This document shows, in pieces, positions 15,990 through 21,894 of a stretch of 35,486 bases of DNA (positions are counted from its first letter, which is position 1; each line of letters begins with the position of its first letter). The notes beneath the pieces were generated by a model that did no database searches, was not told the DNA's origin, and was given only the letters and a program-made list of their open reading frames with translations. Source of the DNA: a virus (taxonomy: Duplodnaviria > Caudoviricetes). Both the position numbers and the translations under genes were made by a program. The stretch covers positions 1 to 35,486 of the IMG/VR virus record IMGVR_UViG_3300020043_002456. One strand, 5' to 3'.

Positions 15990-17359
15990 CTAAAATCTTG
16001 ATGCTGATTTGTATTCTGCATCTCTACCAACAACAACAAGCGGTTTGATGATGCCTGTTTGGAAGCGTGTGTATTGCGATGGGAATACGGATGTGATTAA
16101 GTAGCGTGTTAAGTCAACAATGTGGCCAAATGGCTGGTAACTTACTTTTGTAACAGGGTCAGTAACGGTTTTCTTATCAACCTTACCATTCTTATCTTCT
16201 TTGGTATTCTCAAAGTCAAGTATTGCCACTCTGCAAGTTTCATCAACGGTAAACGATATGCCCTGCTCATTGTAGGCAAGTATCGCATTGAAGAAATCTG
16301 CACTTGGGCGCACATTCGGGTTTGACTTGGCCACGCGCCTTATAGGTTTCACTTCATCAAGTTCGTTAATCAGCAATCGGAATAAGTCGAATCCCTTTTC
16401 TTGCTTAACGTCATCCTTTTGTGATGTGCTATCTCCACACACATAAACATGCCCTGTATGCTTCCAATGTCTTAACCGTTGCATTATAGCCCTGCCCATT
16501 GCTTTGACCGTATTGTCTGGGTTCTTTAACGCAATGCAATCAATCATTCGTATTTCGTTTTCATCACTCACTTGGAATACACCACAAGGGAAGTATGGGT
16601 TAACGTTTTCATCAAAGGAAAGCCAAACGGCAAGTGAGGGGTCGTAGGTTACAATCCCGGTATGCTTAACAGTTGACCAACTTTTTAAAAACTCGCCACC
16701 GAAATCCACCTTGCCCCATTCGCCAAGGACATAAACTTTGTGCAAGTTCGGGTTGGCTTTTACGCGCTCGGTTAAGTGCTTAATATAATCAGCATCTAAG
16801 AAAGCATTATCCTTGTACGTGGTATGCAACACATAAGTATCATCATCGGGCGCATCAAAGAACCTGCGCTTTAACCAATGCTGTTCACTTATTGGGTTGA
16901 ATGTAATTATGAATTGTTTGTAGTTACTTGTTTCGCCTCGCACCCTTAACTCTAATTGATTAAAGTCCAATTCATCTAACTCGGTTGCTTCCTCACACCA
17001 AACCGAAGTAATACCTGCAATAGATTTGATTTTTTCGGCATCATCCATACCTGCACAAAGTATCTCGTTACCTGTTGGTGTATGAGTAAAGCGCATTTCG
17101 GACTTGTTGATAGTAAACTCTGAATAAATATCGTATTCAAGTAGCTTATCAATCAACAACTGATATATTGAATTACGTATCGTAGTGGCTACTTTACGGA
17201 TGCACAATATACGATGATTGCGCTCTGTTGTGGTTCGCAGTATTATCTTTTGAATAGCTGCGATTGATTTGCCAGAGCCAATCAGCCCGCCCCGCCTTTC
17301 AATACCAAGTATCTATGTTGGCTTAAAAGTGCGGGGCGATAGCAGTTATTTATTTTCAT
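15990..17359 (-). CDS. terL: Terminase large subunit, discontinuous (17359-17285 joined to 17276-15990; about 453 aa)
   Basis: MKINNCYRPALLSQHRYLVLKGGAG* in one frame, SGKSIAAIQKII... in the other; Walker B VWCEEATE, FNP coupling motif, C-terminal nuclease. Confidence 0.88.
17288..17338 (-). promoter_or_regulatory. mRNA hairpin ending at the putative take-off codon of terL
   Basis: CGCCCCGC/GCGGGGCG (8 bp), CUUUUAA/UUGAAAG (7 bp), GCCAA/UUGGU (5 bp), 9-nt loop. Confidence 0.7.
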
Positions 17360-17612
17360 TGTCTATAAATTCAACTTTCCAAAGGCGTAACTTCTCGCCT
17401 TGTGTTGTTAAATCAGCGTTAACCGATGTCGGTATTAACTTTGCAGCTAACTTGTAAAACTCGGTTGTGTTTTCCTTTGCCCATGTTGCAAGGTTCGCAT
17501 TCTTATCACCTTGCAATTCATTAAACGCAATCTCAAATGCTTCCTTTACTGATTTGGTCAGTTTGTTTTGCGCTCCTTTCGGTTTGCCGCTATTTCCTTT
17601 AGTAAAACCCAT
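17346..17612 (-). CDS. terS: Terminase small subunit
   Basis: MGFTKGNSGKPKGAQNKLT GxPKG-type motif; directly upstream of and overlapping terL start. Confidence 0.75.
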   Translation of the reverse strand: MGFTKGNSGKPKGAQNKLTKSVKEAFEIAFNELQGDKNANLATWAKENTTEFYKLAAKLIPTSVNADLTTQGEKLRLWKVEFIDNENK

Positions 17613-17655
17613 TTTTAAGTGTATTTTCGTGTATTTTTCACGTTTTTCACGTTCA

Positions 17656-17663
17656 CAAAGATA
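17656..17663 (-). promoter_or_regulatory. -7 promoter box TATCTTTG upstream of terS
   Basis: TAnnTTTG match at head of packaging operon. Confidence 0.55.
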
Positions 17664-17667
17664 CAAA

Positions 17668-19474: not shown

Positions 19475-19718
19475 TGTTACACTTGTTACATTTGTTTCAC
19501 TTAATTTTTTCATGCGTAACATTGACTTCTATTGATTTGTTACAGATGTTACACATTATTACACATAATTTACTACATATCATACACACACACGCACACA
19601 CGCACACACACGCACACATATTTTTATTCCTATAACATTTCAAAAACGATGTGTAAACACGTAACGTGTAACATTTATAATATATCATCTTGAATATCAA
19701 TAAAGTAACTTGTTACAC
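19475..19718. repeat. Putative replication origin: GTTACA/TGTAAC repeats around a CA-rich microsatellite
   Basis: Multiple TGTTACA then inverted GTAAC/TGTAAC copies flanking catacacacacacgcacacacgcacacacacgcacacata (19581-19620), between primase and helicase genes. Confidence 0.55.
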
Positions 19719-21812: not shown

Positions 21813-21894
21813 AACCCCTACCAAAGTACGCCACCCGCCAAGGGGCAATACTAAGATAGGGGTTATGTTGTTAAATCGTTTCAATTTGGCGGGT
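21813..21894 (-). promoter_or_regulatory. Structured 5' leader of primase (hairpin plus loop-pairing pseudoknot)
   Basis: Stem 21813-21832/21844-21864; loop 21833-21841 (acccgccaa) perfectly complementary to 21886-21894 (ttggcgggt). Confidence 0.6.

What the first reader, a model, noticed from the sequence alone, without database searches (positions are those of the whole stretch)
17288..17338. About 20-bp hairpin ending exactly at the take-off codon, with an alternative pairing to the landing site
Seen: CGCCCCGC-A-CUUUUAA-GCCAA[CAUAGAUAC]UUGGU-A-UUGAAAG-GCGGGGCG immediately before GGC UGA; AGCCAA can alternatively pair with UUGGCU spanning the landing codon. GC-rich arms stand out in an AT-rich genome. 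Established: stem-loops refolding behind the ribosome drive forward sliding in T4 gene 60. This independently supports the interruption being functional rather than an error.
Basis: partly seen in the sequence, partly recalled or inferred. Interest (0 to 1): 0.7.

Follow-up and report, generated by a model that had tools for sequence, protein, structure and literature searches.

The report
Hairpin-driven ribosome hop in terminase
The only DNA-packaging motor gene of this phage is broken inside its ATP-binding loop by a stop codon and 8 extra bases, and a strong predicted RNA hairpin just in front of the break, carried by all the broken relatives found and by almost none of the intact ones, likely pushes ribosomes over the gap, a rare decoding trick that is still untested here.

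Summary
The hairpin is real (minus strand 17338-17288, 20 bp, -27.5 kcal/mol, z -6.3). It ends one base before GGC-UGA-UU-GGC, an 8-nt frame-breaking insert in the Walker A of the genome's only large terminase. Of 80 close relatives, 40 carry the same gap, 36 are continuous and 4 could not be classed. All 19 distinct gapped cassettes fold at -25.6 to -30.0; 21 of 22 continuous ones fold no better than -14.3. Gapped genes stay open, with dN/dS 0.043. A second terminase lineage (~32% identical) repeats the design with a different hairpin and a 5-6-nt stop gap. In both lineages some gapped alleles have a NUMOD4-HNH nuclease gene directly upstream (8 loci); no continuous allele in these sets does. 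Best reading (0.65): the hairpin refolds behind the stalled ribosome and drives an 8-nt hop, and the gap spread as homing-endonuclease protection, a miniature of T4 gene 60/MobA. Rivals: coupled reinitiation giving a split protein, or -1 frameshifting. The proposed alternative pairing to the landing site is not supported. No protein evidence exists. New variant of a known kind; this scan has noted similar gaps before.

The parts
17288..17338 (-). Predicted 20-bp mRNA hairpin (5' arm 17338-17318, loop 17317-17309, 3' arm 17308-17288) inside terL codons 8-24; its basal helix is 8 G-C pairs
17285..17359 (-). terL ORF1, 25 codons, ending in the first half of Walker A (YLVLKGGAG); its ATG overlaps the end of the upstream gene
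   Evidence: matches the N-terminus of continuous relatives
17285..17287 (-). Putative take-off codon GGC (Gly)
   Evidence: GGC in 47 and GGU in 4 of 51 gapped loci
17280..17284 (-). 5-nt gap UGAUU: stop codon plus two bases
   Evidence: variants UGAUU 44, UGAAU 4, UAAUU 3 of 51 loci; spanned without an indel by contigs of DNA runs X1 and X4
17277..17279 (-). Putative landing codon GGC, the first downstream triplet that pairs with tRNA-Gly(GCC) at positions 1 and 2
   Evidence: third base C 33, A 15, U 3 of 51
15990..17276 (-). terL ORF2 from the resume codon UCU (SGKS...), 428 aa, Terminase_3 (PBSX type); first in-frame TTG at 17207 would leave out Walker A
   Evidence: PF04466 E 2e-48; only terminase in the record
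17276..17281 (-).
17346..17666 (-). Upstream gene, likely terminase small subunit (by position; no Pfam hit). In relatives L018 and L026 a NUMOD4-HNH gene lies between it and terL; the window has none

Best explanation
The hairpin is likely the driver of a programmed 8-base ribosomal hop that would restore the Walker A loop (GGAG-SGKS) of the terminase. Shown: an in-frame stop and a frame shift split Walker A of the only terL; the hairpin goes with the gap in two lineages; gapped genes are under purifying selection; the cassette is scattered over the terL tree. Inferred: the ribosome unwinds the stem while reading codons 8-24 and stalls with peptidyl-tRNA-Gly on GGC and UGA in the A site. At that point the G-C-rich 3' arm is still inside the mRNA channel. 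Zipping of the basal helix behind the ribosome pays for a forward slide, predicted at about 19-21 kcal/mol if 8-10 nt are hidden. The drive runs out where the next GGN, 8 nt on, reaches the P site, and decoding resumes at UCU. Also inferred: the gap arose and spreads because it destroys the target of a NUMOD4-HNH homing endonuclease that sits just upstream in some relatives and has been lost in this genome, as for T4 MobA and gene 60.
For: Hairpin and gap go together: 19 of 19 gapped cassettes fold at -25.6 to -30.0 and 21 of 22 continuous ones at -3.3 to -14.3. In lineage B, 5 of 5 gapped fold at -17.1 to -19.7 and 34 of 34 continuous at -2.5 to -11.8. Covariation: lineage A has 95.5% of cells paired, 1 pair changed on both sides and 5 pairs with one-sided changes involving G-U on the mRNA strand; lineage B has 99.1% paired and 2 double changes. 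The synonymous difference fraction is 0.137 in the hairpin codons vs 0.385 in the body (lowest of 411 body windows 0.229); continuous alleles give 0.448 vs 0.404. No premature stop in any of the 40 gapped bodies, as far as each locus reaches; dN/dS 0.043 vs 0.041 for continuous. The +8 triplet is the first downstream one with two Watson-Crick pairs in all 13 junction types. The Walker A loop is 8 residues long in 138 of 150 diverse terminases, none has a 1-3 residue insertion, and 2 have an intein at this same junction. HNH upstream: 2 of 39 gapped vs 0 of 34 continuous in A; 6 of 15 vs 0 of 55 in B. The gap label needs 17 changes on the body tree (shuffled mean 17.8) and one clade is rejected. 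Published: upstream hairpins promote forward slips and attenuate -1 slips in 70S ribosomes (PMC6321510); pairing of exiting mRNA is proposed to drive gene 60 bypassing (10.1101/2024.12.09.627546).
Against: No protein or ribosome-profiling evidence. Landing is unmatched at the wobble base (GGC to GGA) in 15 of 51 loci, whereas gene 60 homologues keep identical or wobble-compatible codons. In lineage B landing would be on ACN after UCN take-off, a first-position mismatch, and the predicted gain from a 5-nt slide is only 3-10 kcal/mol. Covariation in A rests on a single lineage split (14 of 500 and 9 of 500 shuffles reach the pairing and covariation scores). Low synonymous diversity may partly reflect recent homing rather than structure. 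The HNH link in lineage A alone is not significant (Fisher p 0.50), and the loci are related, not independent. A 40%-identical HNH (L252) precedes a continuous terL of another lineage. No conserved A-site stem-loop like that of T4 was found.
Confidence: 0.65

Rival explanations
1. Split gene with coupled reinitiation. Ribosomes terminate at UGA and restart at an overlapping near-cognate start in the ORF2 frame (C-UG-A, U-UG-A or UG-A-UU). The 25-aa peptide and the large fragment reassemble with a nicked P-loop. The hairpin hides the initiation region until an ORF1 ribosome opens it.
For: Every gapped junction in lineage A offers an in-frame CUG, UUG or AUU. In lineage B two loci (L507, L511) have a true in-frame AUG overlapping UGA. 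UGA is used in 48 of 51 A loci and 15 of 15 B loci, though it ends only 7 of 42 window genes. Endonuclease-split proteins that reassemble are published (Topo2L, NrdA). This would explain the poor landing matches.
Against: An in-frame NUG follows automatically from any N-UGA-NN gap. The synonymous GGA that would give AUG is the commonest codon here in continuous alleles (15 of 24) yet occurs in 0 of 28 gapped ones. L498 has a 6-nt in-frame gap whose overlapping AUG is out of frame, while its UUA re-pairs well with the take-off Ser tRNA. The published splits keep added terminal extensions; none is seen here.
Confidence: 0.17
2. -1 frameshift at the shifty stop, giving a Walker A with 2-3 extra residues (GGAG-LIG-SGKS).
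For: The -1 frame is open across the gap. The -1 codon re-pairs at two positions in 47 of 51 A loci and well in lineage B (UUC). A weak Rfam hit to a frameshift element lies here (E 0.1, 18.8 bits, far below its cut-off of 53).
Against: The -1 codon is UGG (one pair only) in 4 of 51 A loci. No P-loop insertion in 138 of 138 intact Walker A loops. An upstream hairpin attenuates -1 shifts in 70S ribosomes (PMC6321510).
Confidence: 0.08
3. The gapped allele makes little or no terminase and persists as a selfish, homing-protected allele complemented by co-infecting phages with continuous terL; the hairpin is a hitch-hiker of the cassette.
For: Gapped and continuous alleles occur in the same sample (run X4) and recombine freely, which could keep bodies looking conserved.
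Against: About half the population is gapped (40 of 76 classed), no premature stop was seen in any of the 40 bodies, and dN/dS equals that of continuous alleles. Two unrelated hairpins show pair-preserving changes.
Confidence: 0.06
4. Hop of 5 nt onto a non-matching triplet (AUU), giving GGAG-G-SGKS with one extra Gly, the same distance as in lineage B.
For: It would unify lineages A and B (both have stop plus two bases) and frees the third base of the second Gly codon, which does vary.
Against: AUU/AAU pairs with tRNA-Gly only by one wobble. No one-residue P-loop insertion among 138 loops.
Confidence: 0.04

Closest known systems
Phage T4 gene 60 50-nt translational bypass with the MobA HNH homing-endonuclease element (10.1101/2022.08.31.505936: abstract and discussion sections read; 10.1101/2024.12.09.627546: abstract, introduction and one discussion section read; PMC7026636: passages)
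   Same: Gly take-off codon, stop codon directly 3' of it, Gly landing codon; frame-breaking insert in an invariant motif of an essential gene; link to an upstream HNH nuclease that can be lost while the gap stays; a stem forming behind the ribosome proposed as driver.
   Different: 8 nt instead of 50; terminase Walker A instead of topoisomerase. The conserved stem lies wholly 5' of take-off inside coding sequence, whereas in gene 60 homologues the take-off stem is conserved and the 5' stem is not. No conserved A-site stem; landing not always wobble-matched; no split with added terminal extensions.
Streptomyces phage phiHau3 and prophage terminase bypassing, 7-10-nt gaps (PMC10732093: abstract, sections 3.4 and 3.6 read)
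   Same: Short frame-breaking non-coding block in a large terminase gene at a conserved junction; bypass shown by mass spectrometry in E. coli for a UAA version; local RNA structure predicted.
   Different: Triggered by the rare sense codon UUA and proposed as regulatory. Here a true stop, a covarying upstream hairpin, an HNH link, and a common gapped/continuous polymorphism.
Synthetic stop-hops and upstream-hairpin-stimulated forward frameshifts (PMC5009743: passages; PMC6321510: abstract and section 2.1; PMC3639245: abstract)
   Same: Matched codons flanking a stop; a refolding hairpin behind the ribosome biases movement forward.
   Different: Those are laboratory constructs, low-level or 1-nt shifts. 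This would be a natural, essential 8-nt use.

Membership tests
T4 gene 60-type bypass / MobA element | [quoted passage not shown] | tested here: met
   UGA 48, UAA 3 of 51 gapped loci
T4 gene 60-type bypass / MobA element | Take-off and landing codons identical or wobble-compatible | tested here: inconclusive
   Met in the window and in 36 of 51 loci; GGC to GGA in 15 of 51
T4 gene 60-type bypass / MobA element | About 50-nt gap in a topoisomerase gene with conserved terminal extensions | tested here: not met
   8-nt insert in PF04466 terminase
T4 gene 60-type bypass / MobA element | Conserved take-off / A-site stem-loop within the gap | tested here: not met
   The 24 nt from the stop fold at only -1.0 to -6.6 kcal/mol with changing structures
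T4 gene 60-type bypass / MobA element | Adjacent homing endonuclease gene | tested here: inconclusive
   Absent from the window; NUMOD4+HNH_3 directly upstream in 2 of 39 gapped A loci and 6 of 15 gapped B loci, none in 34 and 55 continuous loci; cleavage not testable here
T4 gene 60-type bypass / MobA element | Mini-SD before the landing codon and nascent-peptide signal | not tested
   The gap is too short to hold a mini-SD at the T4 spacing; the peptide effect needs an experiment
Programmed translational bypassing (general) | One polypeptide from two ORFs, junction shown at protein level | not testable with these tools
   No proteome data
phiHau3-type terminase bypass | [quoted passage not shown] | tested here: not met
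   The gap opens with a stop codon
Intrinsic terminator | Hairpin followed by a U tract | tested here: not met
   Not called on either strand
Known Rfam RNA family | Score above gathering threshold | tested here: not met
   Only fiv_FSE at 18.8 of 53 bits, E 0.1

The most novel reading that the evidence does not exclude
A minimal, repeatedly evolved bypass device: one hairpin inside the coding sequence, ending at the take-off codon, works as a spring whose basal-helix length sets the hop distance and can force landing even on a poorly matched codon. It lets NUMOD4-HNH homing endonucleases immunise the invariant Walker A of terminases with a 5-8-base scar and so spread through lake phage populations. 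Programmed bypassing would then be common in phages, need no T4-type A-site stem, and be easy to evolve.
Probability: 0.45. Interest if true: 0.85.

Novelty: new variant of a known kind. Interest (0 to 1): 0.7.

Why it matters
The papers retrieved here describe natural programmed bypassing for T4 gene 60 and its homologues, yeast mitochondrial elements and Streptomyces phage terminases. The force that drives forward sliding is called a main unsolved point in 10.1101/2024.12.09.627546. This cassette is only 62 nt, has natural gapped and continuous alleles of the same gene, natural compensatory variants, unmatched-landing variants and an independent second lineage. That makes the 'refolding mRNA pushes the ribosome' model directly testable in its simplest form. 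It also means many terminases annotated as lacking Walker A may be intact. Earlier notes of this scan describe similar gaps, so the class is not unique to this genome.

Tried and rejected
Alternative pairing to the landing site: rejected. Assembly error: rejected; 40 of 80 related viral contigs have it, and contigs of DNA runs X1 and X4 span the junction without an indel. Pseudogene: rejected. UGA read as a residue: does not help, that frame stops 12 codons later. Terminator: none called. DNA cruciform: disfavoured; the plus strand folds worse (-22.2 vs -27.5) and one-sided changes involve G-U on the mRNA strand. Small stem starting at the stop codon: weak and not conserved. Other gap lengths after GGAG-stop: a 0-30-nt variable scan gave 38 hits, 37 with 5 nt and 1 unrelated. 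A scan without the 3' half gave 44 hits, 41 known and 3 unrelated. A relaxed Walker A scan gave 46 hits, 41 known and 5 that I judged by eye not to be terminases. The metagenome scan gave 36 hits, 9 terL and 27 chance matches that were dropped. A second scan from a distant member returned almost the same contigs. No RNA holder listed; the two possible RNA runs laid did not cover the junction. No close cultured relative: best GenBank phage 32%. In genome contigs 4 loci were found; L241 is continuous, L243 and L244 show continuous Walker A loops, L242 lacks the region. Paper searches gave nothing relevant; 10.1101/672428 (passages) was irrelevant.

Full report
Setting. The window is a whole 35,486-base virus record, estimated complete, with one terminase match. 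Portal, head and helicase genes lie on the minus strand around it. The host is probably a Bacteroidota species. This is inference: a BT4734-like primase domain (its Bacteroidota link is recalled), a 41% terL match in a Hanamia genome bin and 31% matches in Flavobacterium phages. An 87% match on a 2.8-kb contig in a Planctomycetales bin points elsewhere and may be a binning error. Runs that hold the stretch are mostly lake-water DNA.

Observation. On the minus strand 17338-17288 folds into the hairpin described: 20 pairs, -27.5 kcal/mol, z -6.29, 0 of 200 shuffles. It is the second most stable 51-nt minus-strand window of the genome, and 0 of 5000 synonymous recodings match it. It lies in codons 8-24 of a 25-codon ORF ending GGAG-stop. 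After UGA-UU comes GGC and then SGKS and a 428-aa Terminase_3 body in another frame. Its outer pairs are broken in 8 and 5 of 19 cassettes.

Relatives, lineage A. A protein-based scan kept the best 80 of 352 viral loci: 40 gapped, 36 continuous, 4 unclassed (three lack the upstream DNA; L032 has an odd 2-nt shift). With the window, L082 and 9 metagenome hits, some being the same contigs held twice, there are 51 gapped loci. The gap is always 5 nt: UGAUU 44, UGAAU 4, UAAUU 3. Take-off is GGC 47 or GGU 4; landing is GGC 33, GGA 15, GGU 3. All 19 distinct gapped cassettes fold at -25.6 to -30.0; 21 of 22 continuous ones fold at -3.3 to -14.3. The exception, L059 (-21.7), has the 5' arm and a body only 8 of 1284 bases from gapped L045, so it is probably a recombinant or a chimeric contig. 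Over the 20 pairs, 95.5% of cells pair; one pair changes on both sides (C-G to A-U) and five change on one side, each involving G-U on the mRNA strand. Middle pairs slip register in some variants, and 9-14 of 500 shuffles reach the covariation and pairing scores. Synonymous differences are 0.137 in hairpin codons vs 0.385 in the body of 28 distinct gapped alleles, and 0.448 vs 0.404 in 24 continuous ones. Some codons just upstream (codons -4, -3 and 0: 0.42-0.52) and the landing wobble base vary freely. No gapped body has a premature stop as far as each locus reaches. Median dN/dS is 0.043 (295 of 378 pairs usable) vs 0.041 (198 of 300). On a tree of 53 distinct bodies the gap needs 17 changes (shuffled 17.8) and one clade is rejected, p-AU 1e-31. 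The cassette therefore moves between bodies. This also means recent spread may add to its low diversity.

Origin. Two gapped loci (L018, L026) carry a 168-aa NUMOD4+HNH_3 gene between the small-subunit gene and terL; 0 of 34 continuous loci and not the window do. A scan with this nuclease (best 80 of 352) found 47%-identical relatives directly upstream of a terminase only about 32% identical to ours. Among the best 80 of 571 relatives of that terminase, 14 have a 5-nt gap (UGACG, UGACU) and 1 a 6-nt gap (UGAUUA) between GG[AT]RS and GKT; 63 are continuous and 2 too short. Each gapped one has its own, unrelated 13-14-bp hairpin ending at the take-off Ser codon: -17.1 to -19.7 (5 distinct) vs -2.5 to -11.8 (34 distinct continuous). 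It shows 99.1% pairing and two double changes. Bodies are open, pN/pS 0.074. HNH lies upstream in 6 of 15 gapped and 0 of 55 continuous loci; these are related contigs, so the p of 4e-5 overstates independence, and lineage A alone gives p 0.50. One 40%-identical HNH precedes a continuous terL of a third lineage (L252). Two of 150 distant terminases carry an intein at the same Walker A junction, which marks it as a homing target. For T4, the insert is reported to protect against MobA and to persist after nuclease loss (10.1101/2022.08.31.505936).

Mechanism. With GGC in the P site, the basal helix cannot form because its 3' arm is in the ribosome (the hidden length of about 8-12 nt is recalled, not measured). 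The predicted fold of the exposed RNA goes from -7.0/-4.0/-3.2 at take-off to -27.5/-25.4/-21.9 after 8 nt for 8/9/10 hidden bases, and levels off one to three bases later. The +8 triplet is the first downstream one that gives tRNA-Gly(GCC) two Watson-Crick pairs in all 13 junction types. Only the 8-nt hop rebuilds the 8-residue loop seen in 138 of 150 terminases; 10 others lack the N-terminus and 2 have inteins (nearest solved structure 4idh 'Gene 2 protein'). Published work shows that upstream hairpins favour forward and oppose backward slips on 70S ribosomes (PMC6321510), and proposes exiting-mRNA pairing as the gene 60 driver.

Against. There is no product evidence. GGC-to-GGA landing in 15 of 51 loci departs from gene 60 homologues. 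Lineage B landing (ACN for UCN) is poor and its predicted energy gain is small, 3-10 kcal/mol. Every 5-nt UGA gap creates an in-frame NUG, and two B loci have AUG, so coupled reinitiation with a split P-loop remains a real rival (0.17). It is weakened by the absence of the AUG-making GGA in 0 of 28 gapped vs 15 of 24 continuous A alleles and by the in-frame 6-nt L498. A -1 shift fails in 4 A loci and would lengthen the loop.

Known systems and novelty. It works like T4 gene 60/MobA but is not a member: gap size, host gene and A-site stem differ. It differs from phiHau3 (UUA-triggered; PMC10732093). A review passage mentions an unconfirmed 29-nt hop in Prevotella loescheii (PMC5009743). Seven searches of the held library found no paper on a stop-gap with an upstream hairpin in terminase Walker A. 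Subscription papers are not searched and I read no supplements; the supplement of the Manning and Atkins preprint could bear on this. Earlier AI notes of this scan describe 5-59-nt terL Walker A gaps, some with HNH or upstream hairpins. I did not test them and they are not counted as support; they show that the class recurs. Verdict: real, selected, probably a hairpin-driven hop (0.65); new variant of a known kind; interest 0.7.

Noticed in passing
L451:571-1210 (also L452, L469, L496-L499, L503, L507, L508, L510, L511, L514, L525, L529): Second terminase lineage with a 5-6-nt stop gap in Walker A, its own covarying upstream hairpin, and a NUMOD4-HNH gene directly upstream in 6 of 15; the landing codon is poorly matched.
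   Followed up: yes
L018:918-1424 and L026:918-1424: NUMOD4+HNH_3 endonuclease gene inserted between the putative terS and the gapped terL; the two copies are 96% identical although their terL bodies sit in different clades.
   Followed up: partly
L040, L049, L070, L241, near terL residue 390: An insertion of about 324 aa that begins with C and ends HN, intein-like by eye, in the nuclease half of terL, in both gapped and continuous alleles.
   Followed up: no
P0030 and P0126: Distant terminases with an intein-like insertion right after GSAG, the same junction as the gap.
   Followed up: partly
window 21814-21864 (minus strand): The most stable hairpin in the genome (-28.6), just upstream of the likely start of the primase/VapE gene and overlapping its called GTG; possible translational control or replication signal.
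   Followed up: no
L059:1009-1068: Continuous Walker A that keeps the hairpin's 5' arm and upper stem; body nearly identical to gapped L045. A recombinant, revertant or chimeric contig.
   Followed up: partly
L032, Walker A region: A different 2-nt frame break in Walker A with a partly kept 5' arm; seen once, perhaps an error.
   Followed up: no
window 19530-19640: CA/GT dinucleotide-rich stretch between the primase and helicase genes, seen as low-complexity ORFs.
   Followed up: no
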